Shown here one piece after another: positions 20,166 through 62,772 of a stretch of 64,000 nt of DNA. Position 1 is the first letter of the stretch. Every line of letters begins with the position of its first letter. The translations under genes were made by a program, and so were the position numbers. The notes under the pieces were generated by a model. That model worked only from the letters and a program-made list of their open reading frames with translations, searched no databases and was not told the DNA's origin. This DNA is from Cetorhinus maximus (taxonomy: Eukaryota): contig NW_027596437.1 in the NCBI RefSeq assembly GCF_964194155.1, positions 124,001 through 188,000 on the forward strand, in the 5' to 3' direction.

Positions 20166-20199
20166 GACACAAACAGAAATAATACAGTGGATTCAGAGC

Positions 20200-20675
20200 T
20201 CGATTACATAGGATTACAGAGGATATAAGGCACAGAAATAGGCCATTCAGCCTAACCAGTCCATGCTGGTGTTTATGATCCACTCGAGCCTCCTCCCATC
20301 TTTCCTCATCTAAATCCATCACTGTAACCCTCTACTCCCTTCTCCCTCTTGTGCTTATCTCGTTTCCCCTTAAATACATCCATACTATACACTTCACCCA
20401 CTCCCTGTGATAGTGAGTTCCACATTCTCACCACTCTCTGGGTTAGGAAGTTTCTTCTGAATTCCCTATTGGATTCTTGGTGACTATCTTATATTGATGG
20501 TCTCTCTTCCCCACAAGAGGAAGCATTCTCTCTGTATCCTCTCTATCAAAACCTTTCATCAATTTAAAGGCCTCGATTAGGTCACCTCTCAGTCTCCTTT
20601 ATCCAAGAGAGAAGAGACCCAGCCTGTCAATCCTTTCCTCATATGTCAACACAAACATTTCTGGTATCATTCTTG
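20200..20675 (-). mobile_element. CR1 3' fragment
   Basis: Reverse CR1 tail (ggccattcagcc...gagttccacattctcaccactctctggg...aggtcacctctcagtctcc). Confidence 0.75.
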
Positions 20676-20679
20676 TCAA

Positions 20680-21245: not shown

Positions 21246-21322
21246 GAAATGTTCAGCAAAATTTTACCAATAATGATCCTGGGTGTGTTATCCTTCCCTG
21301 GATGCCAAGGCTAGGAGAGACA

Positions 21323-22278
21323 TAATAACTTAAGAAATAGGAACTGGAGTAGACCATTCGGCCCCTTGAGCCTGCTCCACCATTCAATAAGATCATGGCT
21401 GATCTTATGTTTCAATCCTGATAACCTTTGATTCCCTCACCTAACAAGAATCTATTTACCTGTGCCTTAAAAATATTCAGTGACCCCGCCTCCACCGCCT
21501 TCTGAGGCAGAGTTCCAAAGTTGCACAATGCTCTGAGAGAGATAAAATTTTCATTTCTGTCCTAAAAGGGCGACCCTGATTTTAAAACAGTGCCCCCTAG
21601 ACTCACCCACAAGAGGAAACATCCTTTCGACATCCACCTTGTCAAGGCCGTTCAGGATCTTGTAAACTTCAATCAAATCACCCGTCACTCTTCTAAACTC
21701 CAGTGGAAACAAGACCAGTCTGTCCAACCTTTCCTCATAAGACAACCCACTCATTCCAGGTATCAATCTAGTAAACCTCCTTTGAACCGCCTCCAATGTA
21801 TTTCTATCCTTCCTTAAATAAGGAGACTAAAACTGTATACAGTATTCGAGGTGCGATCTCACCAATGTCCTGTATAACTCAAGCGTGAAATCCTTACATT
21901 TATGTTCAATCCCTCTCATAATAAAGGATTGCATTCCATTAGCCTTCTTAATTACTTGCTGTTCCTGCTTAATAACTTTTTGTGACTCATGTACTAGAAT
22001 ACCTAAATCCCTCTGCACCTCAGAATTATGCAGCCGTTCTCCATTTAAGTAATACTCTGCTTTTTCATTCTCCCTGCCAAAGTGAACTTCACATTTTCCC
22101 ACATTAAACTCCATTTGCCAGGTCTTTGTCCACTCACTCAACCTACCTATATCCATCTGCAACCTCCTCATGCCCTCTTCACAACATACTTTCCTATCTA
22201 TCTTTGTGTCCTCTGCAAATTTAGCCACCATGTCTTCACTCCCCTCATCTCAGTCATTGATGTAAATCGTAAAAAGTT
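21323..22278 (-). mobile_element. CR1 LINE, 5'-truncated, with 6-bp TSD GAGACA
   Basis: KFAEDTKI...WQMEFNVGKC...RSHLEYCIQF; GAGACA at 21317-21322 and 22279-22284. Confidence 0.88.
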
Positions 22279-22375
22279 GAGACACTCTGGGAGGTACGGG
22301 GAGCTGGGACTTGTCCATGAGAGTAACTGAAGGTATGAAAACTGAAATAATCTAGAGTTAGAAAGGAGAAAAGGT

Positions 22376-23800
22376 TCAGTTCTGGATGTGATTCTCAGCA
22401 TCAACAACTGAATCCAACTTTTCTGGTAACATATGAACTCGCTTATGTCTCAGCAGGTCGGATGACCGAGTAAATCTCTTCTCACACATGGAGCAGGTGA
22501 ACGGCCTCTCCCCAGTGTGAATTCGTTGGTGTCTCAGCAGGTTGGATGAATTAGTGAATCCCTTCTCACACACAGAACAGGAGAACGGCCTCAACCCCAT
22601 ATGAATGCGGTGGTGTCTCAGCAGGTGGGTTGAACCAGTGAATCCCTTCCCACACAAGGAGCAGGTGAACAGCTTCTCCCTAGTGTGAATGCGCTGATGT
22701 CTCACCAGATAAGATGAACAAGTGAATCCCTTCCTACACACTGTGCAGGTGAACGGCCTCTCTCCAGTGTGACTGCGCTGGTGTCTCACCAGATGGGAAG
22801 AATGAGCGAATCTCTTCCCACACGTGGAGCAGGTGAACGGCCTCACACCGGTGTGAAATCGCTCATGTACCTCAAGGTAGGACAAACGAGAGAAACTCTT
22901 GCCACATACGGAGCAGATGAATGGCCTCTCCCCAGTGTGAACCCACTGATGTGTCCGCAAGTTGGCTGACTGAGTGAATCTCTTCCCACACACGGAGCAG
23001 GTGAAAGGTCTCTCTCCAGTATGAACTCGCTTGTGTATCAGAACTTGGTTTGAACGAGTGAATCCCTTGCCACATATGGAGCAGGTGAATGGTCTCTCCC
23101 CGGTGTGAATCCGTTGGTGCATAAGAAGGCTGGATGACCGAATGAAACCCTTCCCACACACGGAGCAGATGAATGGTCTCTCCCCAGTGTGACCACGCTT
23201 ATGTGTCAGAAGGTGGAAAGAATGAATGAATCTTTTTCCACACACAGAGCAGGGGAACGGCCTCTCCCCAGTGTGAATGCACTGGTGCCTCAGCAGATCA
23301 ATGCTTCTTTTAAAGGTTTTCTCACATTCGGAGCATTTAAAAGGTCTCTCATCGGAGTGAACCAGTTGGTGCTTAGTGTAGCTTGAAAACTGAGTGAATG
23401 CCTTCCCACACTGGGAGCAGCAGAATGGCCTGTCCTTGGTGTGAACTCGCTGGTGCTCAGTGAGATGCCCTGACTCACTGAACGACTCCCCACAGAGAGA
23501 GCAGCTGAACGGCCTCTCGTGTGTGTGAAGGAGCTGGTGCTCCGCGAGGCAGGAGGACAGCCTGAACCTCTTCCCGCAGTGGGAGCAGCTGAACGGTCTC
23601 TCATCAGTGTGAACTCGCTGCTGCTGGACCAGTTCCTCAGAGGTTTCAAAACTTTTCCCAGAGTGAGAGCATTGAAGAGGCTTCTCATCAAAGTGATCGA
23701 GTTGGTGTGCCAGCAGGTTGGATGAGCACATGAATTTCTTCCCACACGCAGAGCAGGTGAACAGCCTCTCACTATTTTGAGCTCGCTGTCGTGTCAGCAT
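22376..23800 (-). CDS. C2H2 zinc-finger protein (16 fingers, one defective)
   Basis: Long uninterrupted ORF; first in-frame ATG at 23800; acceptor ttttacag|GGTAATAG at ~23990. Confidence 0.88.
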   Translation of the reverse strand: MLTRQRAQNSERLFTCSACGKKFMCSSNLLAHQLDHFDEKPLQCSHSGKSFETSEELVQQQRVHTDERPFSCSHCGKRFRLSSCLAEHQLLHTHERPFSCSLCGESFSESGHLTEHQRVHTKDRPFCCSQCGKAFTQFSSYTKHQLVHSDERPFKCSECEKTFKRSIDLLRHQCIHTGERPFPCSVCGKRFIHSFHLLTHKRGHTGERPFICSVCGKGFIRSSSLLMHQRIHTGERPFTCSICGKGFTRSNQVLIHKRVHTGERPFTCSVCGKRFTQSANLRTHQWVHTGERPFICSVCGKSFSRLSYLEVHERFHTGVRPFTCSTCGKRFAHSSHLVRHQRSHTGERPFTCTVCRKGFTCSSYLVRHQRIHTREKLFTCSLCGKGFTGSTHLLRHHRIHMGLRPFSCSVCEKGFTNSSNLLRHQRIHTGERPFTCSMCEKRFTRSSDLLRHKRVHMLPEKLDSVVDAENHIQN

Positions 23801-24383
23801 GTTTACCAGCTGTATCAATCCCTTCACACAGGAGGAGCAGGTGAACAGCCTCTCACCAGTTTCCAGCTGAGGCGGTCGATTAAATCCCTTCAGATGTACA
23901 AATCTTCAGATCCCAATGACCCAGCTGACTCTGTCAGACGTGAGGTTTGATTTGATATTCCTGTCTGCAGATCCTCCTCTTCTATTACCCTGTAAAATAA
24001 GTTTACAAAGAATTACACTGTGTACATTACACAAACAGGCCATTCGGTTTATCTAGTCTGTACTGGAGTTTCTACTCCACACAAATCTCCTCCCATTCTG
24101 CCAACCTAATCTCAGCCTTTCAGCTGATCTTTCTAATCCCTTTTCTCTCATGTTCTCATTTAATTTCTTTTTGAAAGAGTCTCAGGTATTTTTCTCAGCC
24201 ACTTACTGTAGTAGCGAGTTCCACATTTTAATTACTGCCTGAGGAAAGAAATATCTCCAGTTTTCCTGTTGGATTTATTTGTAACTATTGTGTACACAAG
24301 ACCTCCAGCATTGGACAGACCAACAAGTGGAAACATTCTGTCCGCATCGACCTGCCCATCCTAATGAGGATTTTAAAGACCTA

Positions 24384-35885: not shown

Positions 35886-35892
35886 AGGAGCC

Positions 35893-37245: not shown

Positions 37246-38683
37246 ATTATTTCCTTCCCTCATATTTTTTCCTCCCACCCTCCCTTCCTTCCTTCCTCCC
37301 ATACAACTAATTTCCCCAATTTATTCCTTCCATTCCTCCATCCTTCCTTCCCTTCCATTCTCCATCGTTCCTTCCTCACGCATTTCCTCTCTCACCTGCT
37401 TTTAACCTGAGAAGAGAGAGGAGGGTACCCGAGGGTTGGCCTGAGGGACAGGATTGGCTGGTTGATATCCGGTGAGATTGGCCCATGTGGTTTACATTGG
37501 GATTGGAGGTCCACTTAGCAGGAAGAGAGGAGAGGATTGGGCAGTCTTCAAAGAGGTAAGTAGAGAGGACGAGGCGGATTTATGTAGGGAAAGAATCTAG
37601 AGAGAGAGAGGGGAGGGGGCATAGCAGACTGGTGGGTTTTTGTCCCTGAGTATAATCATACCACTGCAGATCATTATCTACTGAGTAATTTAATTTTGTG
37701 TGTAGACCAGTCGACATACAATGAATGAGTTAGCAATAGTTTGGGGACCACAATTGTGTAGTTCATATCATGGCTGCTGATAGATTTCATATAATTATCT
37801 TCTCAAGGTATCGTGAACACACATCCCTCATGTGAACTGATTAATGCTTATAAATGGTCTGTGCACAATGCTTGACATACAAGAGGTTTTATTGATTTAA
37901 TAAATGTTTTGATAAGGCAGCTTTAATGGAATCAGATTAAATTACAGTTGAACATCCGGAGATGACACCTTCGCCGACCATAATCTTTACTGTTGGTCAA
38001 AGCCAACTAGATTGGATTAAGAGGCACCGTTTAAGGGGTGTTTATGTGAACATTTTAGAGAACTATTGTTCGCATTTTGGACCTGCCCATGTCCCAAAGC
38101 CTTTTTGAACAAATGACGGAAGTATCAAAGGCGGGTGCCAAATTGAACACAGCAAGATCCCGCCAACTTCAAGGCGGTTAATGACCAGATCATCTGATTT
38201 AATCCTCCCTGCGTTCCTCAATCCTGCCCTCTTGAGCATCCTCCGATTCCCATTGCTCCACCATTGGCTGCCGTGCCTTTAGCTGCCAGGTGCCCTAAGC
38301 TGTGGAATTCCTTCGCTAAACCTCTCTGACTCTCTCTCTCTCTCTCTCCTCCTTTAAGATACCCCTTAAAAACTGACCTCTCTGACCGAATTATTGGCCG
38401 CAATATCTCCTTATGTGGCTCGGTGTCAAATGTAATAATGCTCCTATGAAGCACCTTGGGACGCTTTGCCTTGCTAAAGGCGCTAGATAAATATAAGTTG
38501 TTGTTGCCGCAATTGCTTCCTTTTTACCCTTGGTGCCTGGATCGCCGGTATTGTTGCACCATTTTCCCACTTGGTTGGGGTTAAATTTTTGCCTTCTTTC
38601 CTCTGCAGGCTACTGAGGAGGCTGGAGTTCAGAGGTCGCTGCCAGTAGCTGCTCCAAACACAGCCGCCCTGAATGACTCGCAG

Positions 38684-38923
38684 ATGAGGGAGCTGGGGCC
38701 CTGGAGCAACTCGGCCGGTGAGCAATGGAGGCATCGCTACAATTTCTACGCGGCATTGCTCAGCCTCCTGATCTTCGTGGTGGTGTTTGGCCATGTGTTG
38801 ATGTGCATGGCAGTGTCCAGGGAGAGGGCACTGCAGACGACCACCAACTACCTCATCGTCAGCCTGGCTGTGGCAGACCTACTGGTGGCCACGCTGGTGA
38901 TGCCCTGGGTTGTCTATCTGGAG
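38684..38923 (+). pseudogene. drd2l: D2-type receptor coding exon 1 (N-terminus, TM1-TM2)
   Basis: [62 protein letters not shown]|gt; upstream acceptor ttcctctgcag at ~38609. Confidence 0.9.
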
Positions 38924-39183
38924 GTTAAACCGTTAGTTCGCTCCCGCTTATCGATAGGCGGGAGGGGCCCCGAAGGGCGTTGGGCCTCGCAGCTACCGAC
39001 ATCACTCCTCAGCGACCCCACCCCCCGTCATTGAGGTCCTAAGTCCTTTTCCCACTTCCCTTCCTGGAGCCAGTCACTTGTGCATCAGTCACGGCCAGAA
39101 CAAGGTCTCTCTTCTGGTCATCCATTTAGATACCAGGCGATTGGTGAACAACACAAGACTGAACTTGGCCGTATAGAAACATA

Positions 39184-39312
39184 GGCCAGGATTTTATGGC
39201 CCCTCCTGCCCGGCGGGTTATTACGGTCCTGCCGAACTAAATGGAGATTTAATTGGCTCGCCGCGTCCACTGGGGGGGAGACACGCTGCGGTGGGGCCAT
39301 AAAATCCTGGCT
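39184..39312. mobile_element. MITE (probably PIF/Harbinger-type)
   Basis: Perfect 19-bp inverted repeat GCCAGGATTTTATGGCCCC (39185-39203 / 39293-39311), inserted in a CR1 tail. Confidence 0.75.
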
Positions 39313-39860
39313 ACAGAAAATAGGAGCAGGAATAGGTCATTCGGCCCTTCAAGTCTGTTCCGCCATTCAATATGATCATTGCTGATCCTCTATCTCAACG
39401 CCACACTCCCGTGCTCTCCCCATACCCCTTGGTGCCTTTGGAGTCTAGAAATCCATCTATTTCCTTCTTAAATATACTCAGTGACTTGGCCTCCACAGCC
39501 TCTGTGGTGGAGAATTCCACAGGTTCACCACCCTCTGAGTGAAGAATTTTCTCCTCATCTCAGCCCTAAATGGCCTACCCCATTTCCTGAGACTATGACT
39601 CCTTGTTCTAGACCACCCCACCAGCCAGAGGAAACGTCATCCCTGCATCCAGTCTGTCCAGCCCTGTCAGAATTTTATACGTTTCAATGAGATCCCCTCT
39701 CATTCTTCTAAACTCCAGTGAATACAGGCCTAGTCAGCCCAATCTCTCCTCATATGACAATCCTGCCACCCCAGGAATCAGCCTAGTGAACCTTCATTGC
39801 ACTCCCTCTATGGCAATTATACCCTTTCCTAGGAAATAAGACCAAAACTGCGCACAATAG
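39313..39860 (-). mobile_element. CR1 3' fragment
   Basis: Reverse CR1 tail and ORF2 end. Confidence 0.8.
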
Positions 39861-39952
39861 GGACAGGAGCAGGCCATTCAGTCCATCGAGCCTGTTTCAC
39901 CATTAGATTGGAATGGTCCTGCACAGAAGGAGACCATTTGGCCCATCAAATG

Positions 39953-40340
39953 GAGACACAGTGGCGTAGTAGCAATGTCACTGGACTAGTAAACTGAAGG
40001 CCCTATGTAACGCTCTGGGGACATGGGTTTAAATCCCTACAAGGCAGCTGCTAGAATTTAAGTTCAATTAATAAATCAGCAATTGAAAGCTAGTCTCAGT
40101 CATGGTGACCATGAAACTATCATCAATTGTTATAAAACCCATCTGGTTCACTAATGCCCTTTAGGGAAGGAAATCTGCCGTCCTTACCCGGTCTGGCCTA
40201 CATGTCACTCCAGGCCCACAGCGATGTGGTTGACTTTTAATTTCCCTCTGAAATGGCCGAGAAAGCCAATCAGTTCAGGGGCAATTAGGGATGGGCAACA
40301 AATGCTGGCCTTGCCAGCGACGCCCACATCCCATGAAAAA
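39953..40340 (+). mobile_element. Full-length HE1-type SINE
   Basis: tRNA-like head gtggcgtagtagcaatgtcactggactagt...gggtttaaatccc; tail gggcaattagggatgggcaacaaatgctggcc. Confidence 0.85.
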
Positions 40341-41119
40341 GATAAAAAGAAAATTGAGTCTGCTGCAGATTTTTGAAAGATCAATCCAATTAATCCCCAC
40401 TCTCCCCCCACCCCCCACTGCTCTTTCCCCCGTCGCCCTGAAAATTTCTCCCCTTCCAGTATTTATCCGATTCCTCCCCTTTGAAAGTTCCTGTTGAATC
40501 TGCTTCCCCCGCCCTTTCAGGCAGCGCCTTCCAGATCACAACAACTCGCTGTGTGATTAAAAGTCGCCCTTCCTCACCTCGCCCCCTGCTGGTGACGCTC
40601 ACTTGCACCAAAGGCTTATCCGCCTCAGCAAAAGCCGTTCCCACATTGTCGTGGGCAACCCTCGGCCGCTGAACGATCGTCATGGATGGGGGATAATATT
40701 GCAGCCGTCGGGCACTCTTCTGAGTGTTGTGATCCTCCAAAGAGCGAATCTCGCAATCCCATCTCTCAATCGCTTTCATTACCACTTCAAACAAAGAAAA
40801 AGCAAACATAAGATCAGCCGGCGCAATGAAGCTATTCATTGCACAAATGATAAAATATTCATTCATTATCATCGAACTGCTAGATAATTCATTTTGTATA
40901 ATGTCTCCGCTAGATATCTAATCGCACTATTCTCACACAATCAAATCTGGAGCAAAATTAGTTTTATAGGAAATGAAAATTACTGTAATATTCTTTGCTG
41001 CAGCGCTTTCAAACTAATTTATACTTCATACTATCGAGATTGTCCACAAGCGTTTAATCTCTTCATCTTGAAATTACCCGAACTATTATTTTCGCCTTTT
41101 ATATTCTTTTCAATGGAGA

Positions 41120-41712
41120 TGTAATATCTCTATGGACCTCAGTGACTTTTAGGGGGAAGAAAGTAAATGAGAATTTATGGTAAGGGAGAATTCATGATAA
41201 GGGAATGAATTACTTAAATTAGAATCTATAGGCAGGCCAGCGCAAATCTGTAAATCAACAATTAAACAGTTAAACCAGATGAACCTTTTACACTCTCAAA
41301 CTTTGTACACCCTCAGGGTTTGCAATCACCAGCAATGTCCTGGGAGTTAGACTGGAGTCAGAGGATGGCAAGAACATATTTTAAGTGTGTTCTTCAACAG
41401 ATAGGGGAAGGACAGATGGTCCCAGCTTAGATAGGAAGGCAGGTCTCTGCCTGGGTGAAAGTAGGGTCAGATGATGCATGTACCTTTGTACCAGAGACTT
41501 GTCTGTTTAATGTAAACCTATATGTTAAGAAGATTGGAATCTGGAGGGTGTTCTTGTATGTGACCAATAATGTATAAATATGGTGAACACTTGTAGCTTA
41601 GCAGAGTACTGTCTCAAGCTGTATTGAGATGGTGCCCTCCTTGCAATTGCTCGAATAAACGATCGTAACCTGTACCTGAGTCTCCTGTGGTCCGTTCATG
41701 AAAGACACCACA
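41120..41712 (+). mobile_element. Solo LTR (ERV/Gypsy-like)
   Basis: TGTAA...CACA termini, CCAAT and TATAAA ~41564-41578, AATAAA ~41654; no clear TSD. Confidence 0.6.
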
Positions 41713-42212
41713 TCAGTGACAAATGCATAAAACGACCCAAGTGTTAAGCCAATGTTCTCCAAGTTTGATTAATGTAGGTGCAGAATAAGTGTTAGTTTCT
41801 CAACAGAAGATTGTTAAGATGATGCTATAACACATATTCAAATGATTCAAATCAACACGTTCTCTTGGCATATTTATGTTTAGAATATGAAAATGTCTAG
41901 GCTTTTTCTCTGACATGAATGAATAATTGATGTGTTATTTAATAAAAATGTCAATAAGTGCAAAACTGTCAACAGCAAAACAGCAGCAGAAAGTTTATAA
42001 TTTCAACAACAACTTTTGATTCTACAGCACCTTCAATTTAATGAAGTGTCTCCAAGGTGCCTCACAGAAGTGATTATCAAACAATATTTGACCCCAAGCC
42101 ACATCAGGAGATATGAGGGACCGGTGACCAAAAGCTCAGTCACAGAGTGAGGTTTTAAGGAACGTCTTAAAGCAGGAGAGAGTGAGAGAGAGAGATAGAA
42201 AGAGAGAGAGAT

Positions 42213-42597
42213 AGGGGCTGGAGGAGGCTCCAGAGATAGGGAGGGTTGTAGGGGGCTGGAAGAGGTTACAGAGATAGGGCGGGTTGTAGGGACTGGAGGA
42301 GGTTACAGAGATAGGGAGGGTTGTGTGGGCTGGAGGAGGTTACAGAGATAGGGAGGGTTTTAAGGACTAGAGGAGGTTACAGAGATAGGGAGGGTTGTGG
42401 GGGCTGGAGGAGCATACAGAGATAGGGAGGTTTTAGGGACTAGAGGAGGTTACAGAGTTAGGGAGGGTTGTGGGGGCTGGAGGAGGTTACAGAGATAGGG
42501 AGTGTTGTAGGGGCTGGAGGAGGTTACAGAGTTAAGGAGGGTTGTAGGGACTAGAGGAGGTTACAGAGATAAGGAGGGTTGTAGGGATTGGAGGAGG
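42213..42597. repeat. 38-bp minisatellite (~10 copies) next to a reversed L2 tail
   Basis: ggggctggaggaggttacagagatagggagggttgtag units. Confidence 0.9.
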
Positions 42598-42600
42598 AAC

Positions 42601-44674
42601 GAGTCCATTAGCAAATTCGAAAACTAATTTTTATCGACGTGGAAACAATCACACTCCTAACGATTGGCAATTTAAAAGGTGGAATGTTATTTTTGTCACA
42701 AAAAAGGACACATATTGAAACATTGCAACACAACATTAAAACAGGCTTCCAGGCAACAAAAGCCCAATGAAGTATATAGTGTGGAAGAGCCAGAAACAAC
42801 CAATTCTGACATTTAATCCTTATTCAACATGAGAGTTGGGAAGACAGAGCCAGTCACTGTCACTTTACAGGTGAATGGGAAACTCTTAATAATGGAAGTA
42901 GGCACTGGTGCTTCTACCACTGTAGTAGGAGAACACAATTTCAGATATTTAAATAAAGGTGCTCAACAATTAAATTTGGAACAAACTTCCACCAAGTTGA
43001 AAACGTACACAAGCGAAGAAATCCAGGTATAAGGTATCACCAGAGTACCTGCTTATTATAGACACCAAACAGCACAACTGCCAGTGATGGTATTAGAAGG
43101 TACAGGACCAAGCCTTCTAAGTCGAAATTGGTTGAAGGAAATTAACCTTGATTGGCCAATGAGATTTCAAAAGGAAGCAGGAAGAGTTCCTGAGTTGGAA
43201 AAGGAACAAGGCAAGGTCCTTCAGAAAGAGCCTAGAGAGTCCAAGGACCGCATCTGGATGCAAATGGAATGTGTAGCTATTCAGCAACCTGAAGAAATGA
43301 AGACTGTCTTAAACTACGACATGGAAGAACAGCAGAAGAAACTCAAGGCGACTCTGCTGAACTACAGAGTTCAAGTTGAAGCGAGTGAGTTTCACAAAGA
43401 AAAGAAAAACCCTGTTGAAAGACCCTCACACACCACAAGGATCCCTCAGGTCAAAATTTGTACCTCTGGAAAATTACGAAGAGAAGCAGGAAGAATTTAA
43501 CGTCAGTCTGAGCAAACTGAAGAACGAATTGGCACAGAAGACGCAGCAATGTTCAAGGTTCCAGGAGGAAGCCAACAGATACACGAAGGAGACAGAAGAG
43601 CTGAAGAATCAGCTGAATGAAGCTAAAGGTCGTAGACCTTTCCAAGATGCAAGTAGATAATGAAGTCATGGGTAACTCAATTACTGAACTAAGACAAGTT
43701 GAGAAATCACCTGAGAGAAGTCTGGCCGACAGTGAAGTCAAGATGAAGGCCAAGACTATACTCTGTGGTAGAAAGCAGAAGACAAAAAGGAGGAAGGTCC
43801 TGAAAAGACAATAAATGGCGAGAATGAAAAAGTTAACAGGTGATCATCGGAAACTAAACTTGCTCGTTTCCTATTTCACTACAGAACAATCCCAATTTGG
43901 AGGATAAGATGGAGAAAAGTCAAGGGAACCAAAAAGCGACTCCTGATTTGCATAGTCATGAGCAACAATTTACTGTTGGAGAAACAGTGTATGTAAGGAC
44001 TGAAGTGGTTAGCTGGTAAAGTAAGCTCTGTGACCGGACCATTGTCGTACCGTATGGAAGTGGAGGGCCGGATCACCCGTAAGCATGTGGATCATTGAGG
44101 AAGAGAGATATCCCAAGAAAATGATGTTCCACCTCTAACCATTGCTGAACCTATGGTTCCTGTTGAAGTTGCTCAACCAAGGACAGACATGCCCGATGTC
44201 TCTGTCGGAGTGGAAGACACTGAACTGCCTGTGCCTAATGAGGTAACTGATGTTAATGCGGTTCCAGAGAATATGGTTCCTGCAAAAGAATCGGAAGTCG
44301 TGGAGCTTCGACGTTCCACACAGATCAGGAAACTATCTTAAAGACTGAATTTGTAATTTCATGACCTGTGTAAATATTGTGATGGCATGAGATAAATACA
44401 AAAGGTAGAGAAAAGTTTAAGGTTGGGGGTGGGGCGGGGTGGCTACAGTAATTATAGTTCTGTTAAACGTAGGGCTGTAGCTTTAAGAATACTCATGTGT
44501 TGTAAGATCACATGACCTGTATGGACCAATGAGTTAGCAGCACGGGGACCCTCGAGGAGAGAATTCTTCTTTAGTTATAGAGTTAGATGCACACATGTAA
44601 CTGCTGCTGCCGTCTTGTAAATAAAGTTCAACGTTTCCACCAAGCAAAGCTGCCTAGAAAATCAACTCTATCAC
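42601..44674 (+). mobile_element. Non-autonomous Ty3/Gypsy element: gag knuckle, protease, captured coiled-coil fragment, integrase C-terminus, PPT and 3' LTR (~44444-44674)
   Basis: CHKKGHILKHC knuckle; VNGK...MEV[G]TGAS...GPSLLSRNWL protease; TKLARFLFHYRT...WLAGKV...GPLSY...RKHVDH; LRRST; G-rich PPT then an LTR with AATAAA ending TCACA. Confidence 0.85.
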
Positions 44675-45269
44675 ACTTTCCTTCCCGAAAGTACATCAGT
44701 GAAACAAACAGGGTATTTATGACAATGGATGATCACCATTACTGAGACTAGCTTTCAATTCCAGATTTATTAATTGAATTTAAATTCCACCTACCACTGT
44801 GGTGGGAATTGAACCCATGTCTCCCAGAGCATTAGCCTAGGCCTCTGGATTAGTAGTCCAGACATTAATGTTATGCCGCCATCTCACCTTTTAGTGACAA
44901 TCAAATATTGATAGCCCTTAGTTCTGGTCTCACCCCACAAAAATAGAAAGACTTTCGCTGCCCTATCGAAAAACCCCTTTCATCGTCTTAATCAGGTCAC
45001 CCCTCAGCTTTCTCATTTCTAGAGAAAAGAGCCCCAGCCTGTTCAGTTTTTCCTGAGAGTTATAACCTCTCGGATTTTGGCAGTGTAGGAAATGCAGAAT
45101 AGATGAAGAATAGCCTCCTTCGGCGCTGTGAAGTGCTGAGAAGATCGGAAAAAGGGGTTTAATTTCACTCCACCTGGCGGAAACTGCACAGCAACAGACT
45201 TAAAATGGTAGCGGACAACCTGCTTCTCCAGCCCTTTTGGCACCGGGTGGCGGGGCTGTGCCAGGAAGA

Positions 45270-46030
45270 ATAAAAAAGAGGCATATTATCTAAATGGTGA
45301 GAGATTGCAGAGCTCTGAGATGCAGAGGGATCTGGGTATCCTAGTGCATGAATCACAAAAGGCTAATAGCCTTTACATCAAGTAATTAGGAAGGCTAATA
45401 GAATGTTATCGTTTATTGTGAGGGGAATTGATTGTAGGGAGGTTATGCTTCAGTTCTACGGGGCACTGGTGAGACCGTATCTGGAGTACTGTGTACAGTA
45501 TTGGTCACCTTATTTAAGGAAAGGTGTCAATGCGTTAGAAGCAGTTCAGAGGATGTTTACCAGGCTAATACCAAGAATGTGTGGGTTGTCTTATGAGGAA
45601 AGGTTGGACAGGTTAGGCTTGTATCCACTGGAATTTAGATGAGTAAGAGGTGACTTGATTGAAACATTTAAGATCCCGAGCGGTCTTGACAGGGTGGATG
45701 TGGAGAGGATGTTGCCTCTTGTGGGAGAATCTAGAACGAGAGGTCACTGTTTAAAAATAAGAGGTCGCTCATTTAAGACAGAGATGAGGAGAACTTATTT
45801 CTCTCAGAGGTTCGTGAGCCTATGGAACTCTCTTCCTCAAAAGGCGGTAGATGCAGAGTCTTTGAATATTTCTAAGGCAGAGCTAGATAGATTCTTGCTT
45901 AACAAAGCGTTGAAAGGTTAACGGGGGTAGGCAGGAATGTGGGGTTGAGGTTACAATCAGATCAGCCATGATCTTATTGAATGATGGAACAGGCTCAAGG
46001 GGCCGAGTGGCCGACTCCTGCTCCTAATTC
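45270..46030 (+). mobile_element. CR1 3' fragment
   Basis: LVRPYLEYCVQYWSPYLRK...SYEERLDRLGL. Confidence 0.85.
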
Positions 46031-46429
46031 ATAATTTGTGATGTGTCCATCTGAATTCATACACATCAGCGTTCCAGTGGGGTACATGACACGCGTGTGC
46101 CATTGTCAGTGGAGTGCCCTCTGGGCTGCACAAGGGTAGCTAGACTCTTCCTCCCTCTCTTCCCTGCACCCCACCCCCCACCTCCCTCCTCAGGCCTTTA
46201 CCCACCACCCTCCCTTATTCCTCCATTACTTTTCCTGGGCTCCCTAGTTTTGGGAGGAGTGGGGCCACCGAGAACCAACGGCCAGCGAGTGGCCCTTTCA
46301 TGACTCCAGGTTCGCCAGATGTGCATTGACAAGGTTCCCCCCCTCCTCCCTGAAGCTCGATAGAGAATGGGACCCTCCCATGAGAGAGGCTGTCCCGCTT
46401 GTGATCCTGGTTGGAAATGGTAGGAAACT

Positions 46430-47360
46430 GGGAAATATTGGGATGCAGAGGGACCTGGGTGTCCTTGTACACGAATCACAGAAAGACAGCAGGTAGGTAC
46501 AGCAAGGAACTCGAAAGGTAAATGGCATGTTCGCCTTTATTGCAAACGGATTGGCATATAAAAAGTAAAGATGTCTTAAAATAATTATATAGATCTTTGG
46601 TGAGACTACACCCGAATATTGTGCACAGTTCTGGATCCCTAACCCTACCCCTTACCCCAAACCCAACCCTAACTCCCTAACCTCATCCCCAACTCCCTAT
46701 CCCTAATCCTAACTCCCTAACCCCATCCCTAACTCTCCAACCCCATCCGTAACTCCCAACTCCGGCCCTAACCCCATCCCTAACTCCGTACCTCATCCCT
46801 AACTCCCCAAACCCCACCCCTAACTGACTACCCCTAACCCTAACCCCATCCCTAACTCCCTACTCCTAACCCTAACTCCCTAACCCCATCCATAACTCTA
46901 ACTAAACTGATTCCTGGGATGAGAGGGATGTCCTATGAGGGGAGATTGAGTAGAATGGCCCCATATTCTCTGGAGTTTAGAAGAATGAGAGGTGATCTAA
47001 TTGAAATGTACAAAATTCTTCGGGGGTTTACAGGGTCGATTCTGGGAGGCTGTTAACCCCCCACCCCCTCCCCTGGCTGGGGAGTCTGGAACAATGGTGG
47101 GGGTCACAGTCTTAGGATAAGAGGTCAGCCATTTTGGACTGAGATGAGGAGAAATTTCTTCACTCAGAGGGTTGTGAATCTTTGGAATTATCTACCCCAG
47201 AGAGCTATGGATGCTCCATCATTGGGTATACTCAAGACTCAGATTGATAGATTTTTGGGCACTGAGGGTGGGAAAGTGGATTTGAAGTAGAACATCAGCC
47301 ATGATCTTAATGAATGGGTGAGGCAGGCTCGAGAGGCCGAGTGGCCTCCTCCTGCTCCTA
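46430..47360 (+). mobile_element. CR1 3' fragment interrupted by a telomere-like repeat
   Basis: CR1 sequence on both sides of 46636-46905. Confidence 0.8.
46636..46905 (-). repeat. Degenerate interstitial telomere-like repeat (CCCTAA)n
   Basis: ccctaa/cctaac variants with a higher-order ccctaactccctaaccccat unit. Confidence 0.8.
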
Positions 47361-47380
47361 TTTGTCTGGCTGTTTGCTAG

Positions 47381-47463
47381 TTCTTGGGAGTATTGTGTAC
47401 CTTTTTCCGACTGGATCAATGGAACCTCATCCTCAACCTCCCTTGGTTGTCATGGCTACAGGA
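47381..47463 (+). pseudogene. drd2l: Candidate decayed TM3 exon of the D2-type receptor
   Basis: ctag|FLGVLCTFFRLDQWNLILNLPWLSWLQ(GA)|gtacgc; LD, ILNL and the S align with CDIFVTLD...SILNLCAISIDR; phase 0 to 2 as expected. Confidence 0.45.
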
Positions 47464-47582
47464 GTACGCCATTTGGCCTATTGAACTTACTTCCCTGCTT
47501 CACTCACCACCTATTTTGGAGCTTTTTAAAGACCGTCCGGTTCATTAACAGCTCTAACCTGTTTCTTGTACACCCCTTGCAG

Positions 47583-47711
47583 GTATACAGCGGTTGCCAT
47601 GCCAATGCTCTACAATATCCAAGCGGAGAGTCACGTTGATAATAACCATGGTCAGGTTGCTGTCCTTCGCCATCTCATGCACGCTGCTCTTCGGGCTAAA
47701 AAACCACCCTG
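47583..47711 (+). pseudogene. drd2l: D2-type receptor exon (ICL2-TM4) with a frameshifting deletion
   Basis: cag|G YTAVAMPMLYN / SKRRVTLIITMVRLLSFAISCTLLFGLKNHP G|gtaag; TRYS codons reduced to one base. Confidence 0.9.
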
Positions 47712-48246
47712 GTAAGCTGTGCCCATCAAGAACCCTTCTTTCATCTTTTATTCCTCTATTGTCTCCTTCTATGGTAAGGGAGGGCCATGAGAATTCTCAC
47801 AGCAGTCCCAAGGATTGGGGACTTCAGTTATATGGAGAGACCGGATCAGCTGGGATCGTTCTCCTTAGAGTAGAGAAGGTTCAGGGGGAGATTTAATTGA
47901 GGCATGCAAAATCATGAGAGGTTTTGACAGAGTAAATAAGGAGAAAGTGTTTCCAGTGGCAGGAGGGCCGGTAACCAGAGGACCACAGATTGAAGAGAAT
48001 CGGGAAAAGAACCAGAGGGGGGGAGGAGGAGAATTTATACTCCACATGAGCCCACTCCCACCCCCTCTTTATCTCCCTCATCACCATTTCCTTCTATTCC
48101 TTTCTCCCTCATGTGTTTATCCAGCTTCCCCATTAAATACATCGATAATATTCGCCTCAACTACTCCCTGTGGGAGTGAGTTTCACATTCTCCCCCACTC
48201 TCTGGGTGAAGAAGTTTCTCCTGAATTCCCCATTGGATTTACTAGT

Positions 48247-48574
48247 TGTTGCCGTATGCTGATAGTGCTGGTATCCCACCACTGCCAACCATATTGTATT
48301 ATGGTGCGCAGTGGTGTCTCAACGATGCAACATTGAGACTTGTAGATTTAAACATGAACTCTTTATCTACTTATAGATCTCAGGTTACTGTCATGCATGG
48401 CGCTGCTACCTCCATGCAGGCTGGTTCCAGAGTGTTCTCTCTAGACTGTTCTCTCAGTCTGTTACCATGTGACTTTATACATCATACCATGGGTGGTGCT
48501 ATTCTCCAGTTCCTCTCTGACCCTTACTCTGCCGAGCACCTTTACATTACAGTGGCATGCAGGTACATACAACA
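48247..48574 (-). mobile_element. Solo LTR with 5-bp TSD, inserted in a CR1
   Basis: TGTTG...CAACA termini; CTAGT at 48242-48246 and 48575-48579. Confidence 0.85.
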
Positions 48575-48896
48575 CTAGTGACTATCTTATATTGATGGCT
48601 GTCTAGTTCTGGTCTCCTACCAGCCTTACCCTCCCCCACCCCACCCAAAAAGTGGAAACAACTTCTCTAGGTTCACCCTGTCAAAACTCTTTCATAGTTT
48701 TAAAGGCTTCTATCAGGTCACCCCTCAGCCTTCTCTTTTCTAGAGGAAAGAGCCCCAGCCTGTTCAGTCTTGCCTGGTATTTATAAGCTCGTAATTCGAG
48801 TGCCATCTTTGTGAACCTTTAGTTACAACTTCCCTAGTGACTCAATGACAGCTTTTGCAATTATGGAGACCAGGAATGTGCTCTGTCCTCTTCCAG

Positions 48897-49096
48897 ATAA
48901 AAGGGAAGAGACCATATGTGCTATCATGAACCCTTTTTTCATCTTATATTCTTCTATTGTCTCCTTCTACGTTCCCTTCATCGTGATGCTGTTAGTTTAT
49001 GTCCAGATCTGTGCCATGCTGAGACAGAGGAGGAAGCGCGTGGCAGCTAAGAGGTTCAGCGTTGCCATGGATCATGAAACCAAACCGCCCATAAAG
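48897..49096 (+). pseudogene. drd2l: D2-type receptor exon (ECL2-TM5-ICL3 start)
   Basis: ttccag|..CAIMNPFFILYSSIVSFYVPFIVMLLVYVQI...RRKRV...PPIK|gt. Confidence 0.9.
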
Positions 49097-49635
49097 GTCG
49101 GAAGAGTAAATAACAAGCTCAAATATTAAAATGAGGGGATGTGCGTAGTGGGCGTGGTGTAAGTGACTGACCTTTAACCTCTAGACGCCGCAATTAAATC
49201 CTGCCCAAGTTCGCTTTGTGTAGAGGCTGCACGGGTTCAATTCGACATGGGTTAGAGTGGCTTCGATCCATTTTGTATCAGACACGCTGCCATGATGCAG
49301 AGTTGCTTTCAACCTGCCATTTAAGGGAGGATACAGGATGACTGAGGAAGTGATGTCACCACAACTATAGGATGTTGGTCATTTGTAGGAGGCTGCAGAT
49401 CGGCAGATTGGTATAGAGGGAAATGTACATCTAACCGCGTGCTGTACCTGTCCTGGGAGTGTTTGGTGGGGACAGTGTAGAGGGAGCTTTACTCTGTATC
49501 TAACCCCGTGCTGTACCTGTCCTGGGAGTGTTTGGAAGGGACAGTGTCTTGCTTTATTATTTAAAAAACATGCTATTCAGGGTGAAATTTCCTTGTGCAA
49601 TATTACTGTGCGTATCACACAATCATATTCCACCT

Positions 49636-50040
49636 GAAACATTCACTCCCTCCACCACCGATGCACAGTGGCAGCAGAGTGTACCATCTACAAGACGCAC
49701 TGCAGCAACTCACCAAGTCTCCTTAGATAGCACCTCCCAAACCCATGACCATGACCATCTAGAAGGACAAGGGTAGCAGATAGGTGGGAACACCACCATC
49801 TGGAAGTTCCTCACCAAGTCACTCACTATCCTGACTTGGAAATACATCGGCCGTTCCTTCACTGTCGCTGGGTCAAAATCCTTGAACTCCCTCCCTAACG
49901 GCAATGTGGGTTTACCTACACCACATGGACTGCAACGGTTCAAGAAGGCAGCTCACCCCCACCTTCTCAAGGGGCAATTTGGGATGGGCAATAAATGCTG
50001 GGCCAGCCGGGGAAGCCCACATCCCATGAACGAATAAATT
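49636..50040 (+). mobile_element. HER1-type LINE 3' fragment
   Basis: Same tail as 16680-17090. Confidence 0.8.
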
Positions 50041-50227
50041 TTTTAAAAATGCAATACTTAAGTCATTAATTTTGAAAGGATTTTTGCCCTATTTAATGGA
50101 TAATCTCTCAATTCAAATTGTAAACAATAGATTTTCTTTATGGCCAATATGAAGTATTTGTATCCATGTTCGTGCCTACACTGTTGCCAGGGTCGATAAT
50201 TCCATTTTTTGTTTTATTTAGTTTCAG

Positions 50228-50314
50228 AATAAGTGCACACACTCGGAAGATGTCAAACTTTGCACTTTAATGGTCCAGTCAAACGGGAGCACCATTGTGA
50301 GTAAAAAGAAATTG
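50228..50314 (+). pseudogene. drd2l: 87-nt ICL3 exon equivalent to the DRD2 long-isoform exon
   Basis: tttcag|NKCTHSEDVKLCTLMVQSNGSTIVSKKKL|gtaagg, 29 aa; compare [29 protein letters not shown]. Confidence 0.9.
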
Positions 50315-51215
50315 GTAAGGCTTCATCTGGAGACATCAGAATCCTCGGAGCTGACTGACAAATTCTAGTTCAATTTGAGTGGCCGAAATTCCCACTTGTC
50401 ACTAAGGTCACCAATCATTCCAAAGGTCATTGATCAACTCTCTTCCCATTCGCTGCCATCGCACGGAATCTCAATGGACCCAAACCTCTTCCCACTCACT
50501 CCCATTGTACACAATCCCAATGGAACAAGCCCCTTCTCCTTCACTCCTATTGCACAGAATGTCAATAGATCAATCCATTCCCATCGCACAGAACCCTAAT
50601 TTCTTTCACTTCCATGGAGAGATCGGAGAAGTTGGGATTGTTCTCCTTAGAGCAGAGAAGGTTCAGAGAGAGATTTAATCGAGGTGGGTGAAATCATGAG
50701 GGGTTCGGATAGAGTAAATAAGGATAAACTGTTTCCTGTGTCAGGAGGGTCAGTAACCAGAGGGACACAGATTGAAGAAAATCAGTAAAAGAAAGAGTGA
50801 GATAGATGAGGAGATTTTTTTTCCTTTTTACACGGTGAGTTGCTATGATCTGGAAGGCGCTGCCTGAAAGGGCGGTGGAAGCAGATTCAGTAGGAACTTT
50901 CAAAAGGGGAATTGGGTAAATAGTTGAAGGGGAATGATTTGCTGGGCTGTTGGGCAAAGAGCGGGAAAAAGTGTGGGACTAATTAGAAAGCTCTTTCAAA
51001 GAGCCAGCAGAGGCTCGATGGGCTTAATGGCCTTCTCCTGTGCAGTATGATTCTGTGAACAAGTTAACTGCCCACACCCCATGTACAAAATGGTGACTTG
51101 GAGACAAGGGCCCTTTGTCATTCCCTTCCTTTTCCTCCCCTGTGATTTGTGTGCGCTCTGGTCTATGCTATTGGCTGTTGGTAACACCCATTTACTCTTC
51201 TTTTTGGCATCCTGG

Positions 51216-51552
51216 ACACTGGTACGAGAAGCAATCCCTTACTCTGAAGAATCTGAGGGAGCCCACTTTGTGGGGCCTCCCGAGAGGTCAAGGCCAACAG
51301 GAACTCCGCAGGCTTTCCAACTTGGGACCACTTCCGTATCCTGCCTGATGGCTGGTAAATGGAAGGCCCCTTCCTCCATCGATGCATCCAGGGACCCCGA
51401 GTGCGATGGCCAAGCAAGGTTCTTCAGGCGGACCGCTTTTGAGGTGCGGAGGGTGTCGGACGAGAAACAGGTGCCAGTGGCCAAATCAGCAGCGAAAGAA
51501 AACTGTCCCACCAGAAGGAGAAGAAAGCAACAAATGTTGGCGGTTGTCTTAG
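51216..51552 (+). pseudogene. drd2l: D2-type receptor exon (ICL3 to TM6 start)
   Basis: ...AFEVRR...RKLSHQKEKKAT (shifted frame) QMLAVVLG|gtgag; the acceptor appears mutated (cctgg|ACA), so the 5' boundary is approximate. Confidence 0.75.
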
Positions 51553-51564
51553 GTGAGTCGAGAA

Positions 51565-52205
51565 CAAACTAGAACAATAGGCTATGTTCCACCGAGTCAC
51601 AATGATCTAGAACAATAGCCCAAGATCCACAGTCTCAGTGGTCTAGAACAATTGGTTAGGTGCTGTTGTGCCACAATGATCGAGAATAGGCAAACGTCTA
51701 CCGGTTCTTACAATGATCTAGAACAACAGACCGATTTCTATGTAGTTACAAGTATCTAGAACAATAGGCGAAGTTCCATTGTGTCTCAATGATTTAGAAG
51801 AACAGGATAGATTCCATGGATCTTGCAATGATCATGGACTGTAGGCTAAATTACATGCTCTATAACTGTGGACTAACTTCAATAGTCCTGAAATGATCTA
51901 GAAAATAGGCAAAGTTGCCTTGTAGCACAATGATCTAGAACCATAAGTTAAGTTGCATTGTAGCACAATGATTTAGATCATCAGTCCAAGTTCTATGGGT
52001 TTTGCTGTAATCTAGAACAATAGGCTGCATTCCACCAGACCACAACGTTCTAGAGCAATAGGCCAAGCTGCACGGAAATGTAATTATCTAGACTAATTGG
52101 CTGTGTATGGTGTTACCATACTCCCAGTAGATTAGTCTGAGTCCTATAGTGTTACAATGATCTAGAACAATAGGCTAAGTTGTATGGAATCGCTCTGTTC
52201 TAGGA
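51565..52205. repeat. Degenerate ~38-bp tandem repeat (~16-17 units)
   Basis: acaatgatctagaacaataggc core recurring about every 38 bp. Confidence 0.8.
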
Positions 52206-52437
52206 TTGGATTCTATGCCGATGATACCAAATTTGTAAGCTTGTGTGCCAGAGATGTAATGTGAATTTTATCAAAGAACTAGCAACTGTAAGTAATTAAT
52301 GGATGCCCTGTTGCCAAATAGTTGAGGAGCTCTGAGTGGTGTAGGAACCCTTTCACGAGTCACTGCATTGCGATGACAAATGGCCCACATGTGCATTGAC
52401 AACTCTTTTCCTCTCTCTCTCTCTGTCGGATTGGCAG

Positions 52438-52625
52438 GCGTCTTCATCATCTGCTGGCTGCCGTTTTTCATCACTCACATCCTGAACGTCCACTGCCAGA
52501 CGTGCTACATCCCGCCAGCGCTCTACAGCGCCTGCGCCTGGCTGGGTTACGTCATCAACCCCATCATCTACACGACCTTCAACGTGGAGTTCCGCAAAGC
52601 CATCATGAAGATCTTGCATTGCTGA
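52438..52625 (+). pseudogene. drd2l: D2-type receptor last exon (TM6-TM7-helix 8)
   Basis: cag|[17 protein letters not shown]...[28 protein letters not shown]. Confidence 0.92.
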
Positions 52626-61602: not shown

Positions 61603-62772
61603 ATGGATTTGGAAATTGAGGGGATTATAGGAAGATTTTCAGATGCCATGAGCCGTGGCGGGATATCCGAAGTGGCATCTTTGGTGAAAGCTGAGAGGAG
61701 CAGATTGGAAAGCGTGACGGTTCATGTGGCGGTCACCGGGACCCCGAGAGCGGGGAAGTCTGCTTTCATTAATTCAGTCATGGGTTTCAAGGATGGCGAA
61801 GATGGCACGGCACCCACCGGCCCCGCCCAACAGGTGACAAAGCCGGCGCCTTACAGCCGGCCGGGGAACCCCAGTTCTGTGTTCTGGGAGCTGCCCAGCG
61901 TTCGGGGATCCGGCTTCTCGTCGGGCCACTACCTGAAGGCGGTGGAGGTCGACAAGTACGTCGGCTTCTTCATCCTGTCATCGACGTGGTTCACGTGGGA
62001 GGTCGCAGCCCTTGCCAGCGAGCTCAGGCGGGTTGGCAAGCAGTTCTACCTCATTCGCACCAAGATTGACTTGGGCCCTCCTGGCTACAGGGACAAGGAG
62101 TTCGTTGAGGACGTCCTGAATGTTTTCACCGCCGGCTACTTTGAAAACCTGGACATTGAATACGCGATTGCTCACTTCTTCTGTGTCTCCTGCCACCAGG
62201 TTGACAGGTTCGACTTTCTGGAGTGCGTCCGGGCTCTGCAGAGAAATTCCTCTCCTCCACTCCAGAAACACGCCCTGCTGCTCTCCCTGTACTACTTGGC
62301 CAACAAGATGGAGCTGAAGCACTCCCTGAGGGAGTTCATTCCGGTGTCGGCGATCTACAGCTGCCTCATCGACCCCATCCCGATCGAGCAGCTGCCTTAC
62401 CAGGCCAATGTCCACTTTCTGTACAACGAGATCCGGCTTTACCGCGTCCTGTTAGGGCTGGACTACCCGGCCTTGAGCAAAAGGGCCAAGCTGATTCGCC
62501 AGCCGACCTTTGTCCTCTCGGATGAGATCCAGACCACGATGGCGAAGATGCTGACGGAGAAGGGCGTCTCGGAGGAGCTGCTGAAGTGGACGGAGATAAA
62601 CGCGTCGGTCTCCCACAGCTACGTGAAGTGGATTCCCTTTCTCGAGACCCTGCCTGGAGGGAAGCTGTCTGGGGCTTCCACCATCCGCTTGTTGGATACC
62701 ATGCTGCAAAAGTTTACGGACGATGCCTGCCGTGTTCAGAGGAAAATGGAGGATGTACTGAAGGGTGAATAA
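61603..62772 (+). CDS. Immunity-related (p47/IRG) GTPase family protein, IRGC/IRGQ-like, 389 aa, single coding exon
   Basis: VAVTGTPRAGKSAFINS (G1), FWELPS (G3 variant), FYLIRTKID (G4), FCVS, IDPIPI in the C-terminal helical domain; acceptor ttttctctcag at 61593 then ATG 61603; GC3-rich intact ORF. Confidence 0.88.
   Translation: MDLEIEGIIGRFSDAMSRGGISEVASLVKAERSRLESVTVHVAVTGTPRAGKSAFINSVMGFKDGEDGTAPTGPAQQVTKPAPYSRPGNPSSVFWELPSVRGSGFSSGHYLKAVEVDKYVGFFILSSTWFTWEVAALASELRRVGKQFYLIRTKIDLGPPGYRDKEFVEDVLNVFTAGYFENLDIEYAIAHFFCVSCHQVDRFDFLECVRALQRNSSPPLQKHALLLSLYYLANKMELKHSLREFIPVSAIYSCLIDPIPIEQLPYQANVHFLYNEIRLYRVLLGLDYPALSKRAKLIRQPTFVLSDEIQTTMAKMLTEKGVSEELLKWTEINASVSHSYVKWIPFLETLPGGKLSGASTIRLLDTMLQKFTDDACRVQRKMEDVLKGE

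What the first reader, a model, noticed from the sequence alone, without database searches (positions are those of the whole stretch)
38684..52625. Probable unitary pseudogene of drd2l, a D2 paralog, in a cartilaginous fish
Seen: DRD2-type exon structure including the 87-nt ICL3 exon. Lesions are TM1 GN>GH (N1.50), a decayed TM3 exon, an 11-nt frameshift deletion in ICL2, W4.50>R, a TM4 P>T, a mutated acceptor, paired frameshifts before TM6, and loss of NSA in TM7. Known: DRD2, DRD3 and drd2l lie in paralogous regions, and human IRGC/IRGQ sit beside a ZNF cluster at 19q13 in the CADM4/PHLDB3 paralogon. Inference: a neighbouring IRG gene and ZNF cluster fit drd2l rather than DRD2. The locus would then record drd2l presence in the gnathostome ancestor and its ongoing loss in this lineage.
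Basis: partly seen in the sequence, partly recalled or inferred. Interest (0 to 1): 0.75.

Follow-up and report, generated by a model that had tools for sequence, protein, structure and literature searches.

The report
Duplicated dopamine-receptor pseudogene in a shark
This is a broken spare copy of a dopamine receptor gene (drd2l) that was duplicated together with a neighbouring immune GTPase gene in mackerel sharks; the working copy survives in this and other sharks, although the gene has been described as lost from cartilaginous fish.

Summary
The lesions are real and the gene is drd2l, but it is not a unitary pseudogene. Seven of eight listed lesions are confirmed; the TM3 exon is absent, not decayed. 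The window's own gene model is named from the basking shark. That species has an intact drd2l model (P0005, 94% identical to the white-shark model) and two further decayed copies that share the TM7 NSA deletion and the pre-TM6 frameshift. Trees place the window inside a drd2l clade (97/97), sister to another decayed copy; an AU test rejects DRD2. Full-length drd2l models exist in seven other sharks. The IRG gene 9 kb downstream belongs to an expanded clade in which basking- and white-shark paralogs interleave, while the IRG on a contig of the same length as the intact drd2l's lies outside it. Best reading: a duplicated pseudogene carried as a passenger on a drd2l–IRG block that began amplifying before these two lineages split. 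The wider point is that sharks kept drd2l, against two papers that call it lost in cartilaginous fish or unique to bony fish. That IRG selection drove the amplification is inferred, not shown.

The parts
38609..38923 (+). drd2l pseudogene exon: N-terminus, TM1-TM2 (AG/GT intact). Carries loss of the ancestral start Met (38645-38647) and N1.50H (38792-38794)
   Evidence: 38684-38923 is 100% identical to model P0002
38924..47582 (+). Fused introns with the TM3 exon (D3.32, start of DRY) absent; filled with LINE-like and LTR-like remnants and tandem repeats
   Evidence: no TM3 exon; repeats; element classes judged from translations, not from a repeat library
47583..47711 (+). Exon ICL2-TM4 with 11-nt deletion (47617/47618), W4.50R (47654), P4.59T (47681)
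47718..47771 (+). 54-nt partial copy of the TM5 exon placed just behind the donor of the TM4 exon
   Evidence: local alignment to about 48917-48969, 5 differences in 54 columns
48897..49096 (+). Exon ECL2-TM5-start of ICL3, open, splice sites intact
50228..50314 (+). 87-nt ICL3 exon (29 codons, phase 0/0), open
51216..51552 (+). Exon ICL3-TM6 start; acceptor AG>GG at 51214-51215; -1 and -2 frameshifts at about 51498 and 51533
52438..52625 (+). Last exon TM6-TM7-stop; 9-nt deletion of NSA at 52553/52554
38089..38130 (+). Homologue of the short upstream exon used in the models of the intact lamniform copies (P0005, P0006); here followed by GC
   Evidence: weak tblastn hit, E 0.004
61603..62772 (+). 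Intact single-exon IRG/IIGP GTPase ORF, 389 aa, same strand, 9 kb downstream; member of the expanded lamniform IRG clade; G1 and G4 motifs present, G3 reads ELPS
1817..23905 (.). Upstream cluster of C2H2 zinc-finger arrays (ORFs 1817-2443 -, 8780-9670 -, 13087-13908 +, 22376-23905 -, plus broken arrays near 4300-5400 and 14300-14900)
   Evidence: Pfam zf-C2H2 for the 3 arrays scanned

Best explanation
An unprocessed, duplicated pseudogene of drd2l in a lamniform shark. Sharks keep one working drd2l next to an IRG-type GTPase gene. In an ancestor of the basking and white sharks the block holding both was duplicated and then amplified. The drd2l on the duplicate lost TM7 NSA and took a frameshift before TM6 early, before further copying. 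Each copy then decayed on its own: this one lost its TM3 exon, its start Met, an acceptor, N1.50, W4.50 and P4.59. The IRG on the same block stayed intact and diversified. SHOWN: lesions, drd2l identity, an intact model and decayed sister models in the same species, shared lesions, faster change, interleaved IRG paralogs. INFERRED: that drd2l and IRG were copied as one unit at each locus; the pre-split date; exchange between copies; and that selection on the IRG (rather than neutral rearrangement in a repeat- and zinc-finger-rich region) keeps the amplicon (about even odds).
For: Same-species models: P0002 (this locus), intact P0005 (8 of 8 receptor motifs; 94.3% to white-shark P0006, 87.9% to the window), decayed P0003 and P0004. 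NSA is missing in P0002, P0003, P0004 and unnamed P0260 and present in the other 10 of 14 rows. P0003 reads the same shifted peptide before TM6, and P0004 reads the same stretch in the window's other frame and shares the ICL2 deletion junction. Tree: window+P0003 100/98, lamniform group 99/97, drd2l clade 97/97, DRD2 clade 99/99; AU p=1.5e-5 against DRD2 (same groups). Relative rate against P0005: 32 vs 9, 31 vs 9, 32 vs 7 changes with three outgroups, p<=7e-4. Pre-split date: 2 derived sites join P0005+P0006 and 0 join the pseudocopies to either; IRG paralogs of the two species interleave inside a 100/100 clade, with P0127 outside it; a contig of coded organism B bridges the NSA site without the 9 letters (X6 record 32). 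IRG cluster P0121, 94% identical to the window's IRG, has 21 member sequences.
Against: Cluster members could not be listed: the 21 may include isoforms, haplotypes or other species. P0005 is a predicted model; its expression and function were not tested. The drd2l tree leaves P0005, P0006 and the pseudocopies as an open fork, so the date rests on 2 sites, the IRG tree and one contig. Lesion sharing is not cleanly nested (window+P0004 share the 11-nt deletion; window+P0003 share M27V, Y60F, F470I), which needs exchange between copies or recurrence. No dN/dS was computed for the IRGs. The TM3-exon loss was not checked in reads.
Confidence: 0.87

Rival explanations
1. Unitary pseudogene: the only drd2l of this lineage, being lost.
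For: Many disabling lesions; the literature read here says drd2l is absent from cartilaginous fish.
Against: Intact model P0005 in the same species and full-length models in seven other sharks; sister pseudocopies with shared lesions.
Confidence: 0.02
2. Assembly artefact: the indels are errors, or the locus is a false duplicate (haplotig) of the intact gene.
For: P0002 and P0005 both lie on short contigs (301,784 and 282,690). W4.50R and P>T read as the ancestral letters in every laid contig that covers them in X2, X4 and X20. The TM3-exon gap is unchecked. No listed run holds more than 0.38 of the words.
Against: 12% protein difference from P0005 is far above allelic level. The same NSA deletion occurs in three other models and in a contig from another coded organism. 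No N in the window. Contigs drop rare variants, so private changes are expected to vanish.
Confidence: 0.04
3. The duplicate lineage was kept for a time, or some copies still are, as an expressed receptor that binds but does not signal (decoy or dominant-negative partner); this copy is a later casualty.
For: The lesions shared most widely keep the frame: the 9-nt NSA deletion and the -1/-2 pair. P0003 keeps TM3 and ICL2.
Against: P0003 has G1.49-region, TM4, TM6 (W6.48S) changes and lacks the start of TM6 in its model. A contig family in X2 lacks one more base at 51533, so frame restoration is not general. This copy cannot fold as a 7TM protein (98-aa product).
Confidence: 0.05
4. A broken DRD2 or DRD3.
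For: DRD2-type exon layout; best solved-structure match is human D2.
Against: AU test rejects DRD2; separate shark DRD2 clade exists; D3 scores lower (87 vs 110 bits) and four elasmobranch Drd3 genes lack the 87-nt exon (PMC12198306 passage).
Confidence: 0.01

Closest known systems
drd2l (DRD2l, 'D2beta' branch) of gar, bichir, coelacanth, lungfish and teleosts
   Same: Same clade (97/97); IRG-family gene downstream as in gar (IRGQ1; PMC5900934 section 12); 87-nt ICL3 exon
   Different: In a shark, where PMC5900934 says it was lost and PMC12198306 calls the branch unique to bony fish; multi-copy with one intact model; this copy is dead
Unprocessed duplicated pseudogenes on segmental duplications (general class; from my own knowledge)
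   Same: Keeps introns, has an intact parent elsewhere, shares early lesions with sister copies, evolves faster
   Different: The passenger is a monoamine GPCR that is normally single-copy; the intact cargo is an IRG GTPase
IRG (p47) GTPase clusters of mouse and zebrafish, and the quasi-GTPases IRGQ (PMC1297648, passages)
   Same: Single-exon IIGP-family ORF; lineage-specific cluster growth; altered nucleotide-binding motif as in irgq genes
   Different: Here G1 (GxxxxGKS) and G4 (TKID) are kept and only G3 departs from DxxG (ELP in all 14 rows; motif definitions recalled); orthology to IRGC or IRGQ not tested; no shark expansion found in my searches
DRD2 (human D2, PDB 7jvr/8tzq)
   Same: Best solved relative of the intact copy, 588 bits against 411 for D3
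   Different: Separate paralog; sharks have their own DRD2

Membership tests
drd2l | Groups with gar/coelacanth/bichir drd2l, apart from gnathostome DRD2 | tested here: met
   AU p=1.5e-5 (DRD2 set taken from database names, but after the first tree was seen); the clade's label rests on P0070's UniRef name and on the second D2 paralogs of gar and coelacanth
drd2l | IRG/IRGQ1 gene downstream | tested here: met
   IRG 9 kb downstream, same strand; contig-length match in 4 of 6 species; exact IRG orthology not tested
drd2l | XRCC1 upstream; ETHE1 and PHLDB3 downstream | tested here: inconclusive
   No matching Pfam hit in 182 of 190 ORFs of 50 aa or more in 24000-38600 and 52626-64000; short exons would be missed; the parent locus could not be read
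drd2l | 87-nt phase-0 ICL3 exon (D2-type exon 6) | tested here: met
   50228-50314; shared with DRD2, so it only argues against elasmobranch Drd3 and DRD4
DRD2 | Groups with gnathostome DRD2 | tested here: not met
DRD2 | ANKK1/TTC12 neighbours | tested here: inconclusive
   No kinase, ankyrin or TPR Pfam hit in the ORFs scanned; window is only 64 kb
Pseudogene | Cannot encode the full protein | tested here: met
   TM3 exon absent, frameshift, dead acceptor; 98-aa straight-splice product
Unitary pseudogene | No functional copy of the same gene in the genome | tested here: not met
   P0005, same species name, 8 of 8 motifs; function of P0005 itself not assayed
Duplicated (unprocessed) pseudogene | Introns kept and an intact parent present | tested here: met
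Duplicated (unprocessed) pseudogene | Flanking DNA homologous to the parent locus | not testable with these tools
   No genome held; indirect: IRG paralogs and a shared upstream model exon at 31537-31650 in P0002/P0003
IRG/IIGP GTPase (neighbour) | Pfam IIGP over most of the length | tested here: met
   132.6 bits, cut-off 24; Atlas hits all IRG-type
IRG/IIGP GTPase (neighbour) | Canonical G3 DxxG and GTPase activity; interferon induction | tested here: inconclusive
   G3 reads ELPS; activity and induction not testable here

The most novel reading that the evidence does not exclude
Mackerel sharks carry an amplicon of some tens of copies of a zinc-finger–drd2l–IRG block, grown under selection for immune GTPase diversity, and some of the drd2l passengers with frame-keeping lesions are still expressed as receptors that cannot couple to G protein and so tune dopamine signalling by the one intact drd2l or by DRD2.
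Probability: 0.06. Interest if true: 0.78.

Novelty: new member of a known kind. Interest (0 to 1): 0.44.

Why it matters
The pseudogene itself is an ordinary kind of object. Two things around it matter. First, it leads to intact drd2l models in eight sharks, which turns the tree-based inference of a gnathostome origin of drd2l (PMC5900934) into direct evidence and contradicts the statements that it was lost in cartilaginous fish or is unique to bony fish; sharks would have one more D2-class receptor than the published repertoire. The models already sit in NCBI under generic 'D(2)-like' names, so this is recognition, not discovery of sequence. Second, it marks an apparently undescribed lamniform expansion of an IRG-type GTPase, with dated passenger pseudogenes that can order the duplications. 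It also warns that automatic annotation counts several 'D2-like' protein-coding genes in this species where most are dead.

Tried and rejected
Whole-genome search: no genome is held for this window. Cluster member lists could not be obtained, so the 21-member count and the species of P0260 stay open. A DRD2 named for this species was not among the best 120 of 619 hits; it may be hidden in a multi-member cluster, so 'intact DRD2 elsewhere in this species' is untested (Stegostoma and C. plagiosum have both paralogs). Rays and chimaeras: none among the best 120 of 1506 exon-1 hits; this is no evidence of absence. 'Decayed TM3 exon': rejected. XRCC1/ETHE1/PHLDB3/ANKK1/TTC12 relics: nothing found in 182 ORFs, a weak negative. 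Expression: no RNA holder listed; no evidence either way. Contig depth: pieces on the 87-nt exon have depth 1450 and 1460 in X2 and X4, against 64-118 for the thinnest listed pieces on the gene, which would fit many collapsed copies, but the tool states that depth is no copy number, so it is kept as a hint only. The 11-nt deletion in reads: X4 record 17 crosses it without an insertion but has only 24 letters on one side, below the 31 needed; inconclusive. X20 record 14 crosses both pre-TM6 frameshifts with 18 letters left out and none put in, but the place of the 18 is not shown. X20 record 16 has 21 letters put in and may be an NSA-bearing copy; unresolved. Only the best-supported rows were shown (591, 30, 2755 and more rows hidden). 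The careful mixture-model tree did not finish (one search is the quick tree); one search left out 12 of its 40 rows, among them the longest branches, and used LG+G4; P0002, P0004, P0007, P0012 and P0260 were left out of both trees because their models hold off-frame or inserted sequence. Earlier findings: three look-ups returned nothing. Literature searches with no hit; irrelevant hits; one search returned only the two papers already read; seen as a listing only and not used. The library lacks most subscription papers (Yamamoto 2015 is known to me only through PMC5900934), and I opened no supplements; the supplementary trees of PMC12198306 could bear on the novelty claim.
Full report
Observation. 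The window holds six exons of a D2-class receptor on the + strand: 38609-38923, 47583-47711, 48897-49096, 50228-50314 (87 nt), 51216-51552 and 52438-52625. Against the intact shark model P0005 I confirm N1.50H, the 11-nt ICL2 deletion, W4.50R, P4.59T, the AG>GG acceptor, the -1 and -2 frameshifts before TM6 and the 9-nt loss of NSA in TM7: 7 of the 8 listed lesions. The eighth, a 'decayed TM3 exon', is not there. Three searches found nothing above background, and the best look-alike scores 31.5 of 196, matched by 22 of 300 random stretches, while real exon pieces score 67-91% of their maximum. The exon that carries D3.32 is missing. The ancestral start Met is also lost, and straight splicing from ATG 38684 stops after 98 residues. 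The locus cannot make a receptor.

Identity. Exon 1 is 100% identical to model P0002, named D(2)-like from Cetorhinus maximus, and P0002 maps along the window. A read-through with X at the breaks falls in a clade with bichir drd2l and the second D2 paralogs of gar, sturgeon, coelacanth and lungfish (97/97). A separate DRD2 clade (99/99) holds chimaera, shark and ray DRD2. Forcing the window into DRD2 costs 168.6 log-likelihood units, AU p=1.5e-5 (28 rows, LG+G4, long-branch warnings near the root; the quick mixture-model tree of 40 rows gives the same groups). Two of the D3 outgroup rows were checked against solved D3 sequences. An intact IRG/IIGP ORF lies 9 kb downstream on the same strand, as IRGQ1 does for gar drd2l (PMC5900934; I read the abstract and introduction, passages and section 12). 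The other published markers were not found in the window, a weak negative.

Not unitary. Four clusters carry this species' name: P0002 (this locus), P0003, P0004 and P0005. P0005 is full length, has 8 of 8 receptor motifs and is 94.3% identical to white-shark P0006, against 87.9% to the window. Seven other shark models also pass 8 of 8 (P0006-P0010, P0014, P0102; P0014 is flagged low quality and P0007 has a large insert). P0003, P0004 and the unnamed P0260 lack NSA exactly as the window does; the other 10 of 14 rows keep it. P0003 reads the same scrambled peptide before TM6; P0004 reads that stretch in the window's other frame and shares the ICL2 deletion junction. The window is sister to P0003 (100/98) and has changed about three to four times as often as P0005 (32 vs 9, p=4e-4). 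Early lesions were therefore fixed in one duplicate that was copied again, and later lesions are private: W4.50R and P>T read ancestral in all laid contigs that cover them. Sharing is not nested (window+P0004 for the 11-nt deletion; window+P0003 for M27V, Y60F, F470I), which suggests exchange between copies; this is inference.

The block. The IRG search returned 14 proteins, 5 clusters named from this species and 2 from the white shark, and one each from six other elasmobranchs. The cluster nearest the window's IRG (94%) has 21 member sequences. In the IRG tree P0127 lies outside a 100/100 clade in which basking- and white-shark paralogs interleave. That places the first duplications before these lineages split. 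Two weaker lines agree: 2 derived sites join P0005 with P0006 and none joins the pseudocopies to either, and a contig of coded organism B bridges the NSA site without the nine letters (X6 record 32), which also argues against an assembly error at that site. Against: nothing could be mapped on a genome, cluster members could not be listed, and the drd2l tree itself leaves the date open.

Mechanism. Most likely (0.87): segmental duplication of a drd2l–IRG block, with drd2l as a passenger freed from constraint by the intact parent. The IRG copies stay open at 389 aa while the drd2l copies decay, which fits selection on the IRG, as IRG clusters grow by lineage in mouse and zebrafish (PMC1297648, passages); neutral rearrangement in a region rich in repeats and zinc-finger arrays is about as likely, since no dN/dS was measured. 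The IRG has G1 and G4 but ELP in place of DxxG at G3 in all 14 rows (motif definitions recalled), so it may be a quasi-GTPase. Rivals: unitary loss (0.02), artefact (0.04), a retained non-signalling receptor (0.05; prompted by the fact that the shared lesions keep the frame), DRD2/DRD3 (0.01).

Known and new. Duplicated pseudogenes and IRG expansions are known kinds. PMC5900934 states that DRD2l was lost in the ancestor of cartilaginous fish, and PMC12198306 (passages only) calls the D2beta branch unique to bony fish. Searches for drd2l with shark, elasmobranch, catshark, chondrichthyan or cartilaginous fish found no paper reporting it in sharks, and two found none on a shark IRG expansion; the library lacks most subscription papers and I saw no supplements. 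The intact shark models are already public under generic names.

Verdict. Observation partly confirmed; interpretation partly supported (drd2l yes, unitary loss no). New member of a known kind. Interest 0.44, carried by the retention of drd2l in sharks and the lamniform drd2l–IRG amplification rather than by the pseudogene.

Noticed in passing
window 47718-47771: A 54-nt copy of the start of the TM5 exon (about 48917-48969) sits six bases behind the donor of the TM4 exon. Contigs of organisms A, B and C lie on this stretch or just behind it (rows 47769 and 47785), so it is probably older than this copy; origin unexplained.
   Followed up: partly
window 61603-62772; P0121-P0133: Elasmobranch IRG family with ELP in place of the G3 DxxG in all 14 rows; expanded in lamniforms (one cluster of 21 member sequences). 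Worth its own study as a possible quasi-GTPase expansion.
   Followed up: partly
P0260 (unnamed representative): A further decayed drd2l model without NSA, with an ICL2 frameshift at a different place from the window's; species unknown.
   Followed up: partly
window 31537-31650: The models P0002 and P0003 both start with an exon homologous to this stretch, 7 kb upstream of the gene; a hint that the duplicated unit reaches well upstream, or that both models use the same repeat.
   Followed up: no
window 42600-44650: LTR-retroelement-like remnant in the fused intron (protease-like peptide at 42817-43032, broken ORFs to about 44340); Pfam gave no hit for 43033-43497.
   Followed up: partly
window 46636-46898: Degenerate CCCTAA-rich tandem array inserted inside a LINE-like fragment, upstream of the TM4 exon.
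   Followed up: no
window 32349-33395: 348-aa reverse-transcriptase ORF (Pfam RVT_1, E 1.2e-24), part of a LINE family scattered through the window; weak integrase hit at 30262-30507.
   Followed up: no
window 1817-23905: At least six C2H2 zinc-finger arrays on both strands, some broken; 3908-5422 and 8726-10244 are inverted homologues (69%). No effector domain was looked for.
   Followed up: partly
window 24380-29060: Several short mutually similar elements (24380-24650, 27376-27584, 28909-29057, also 11094-11231) in both orientations; not classified.
   Followed up: no
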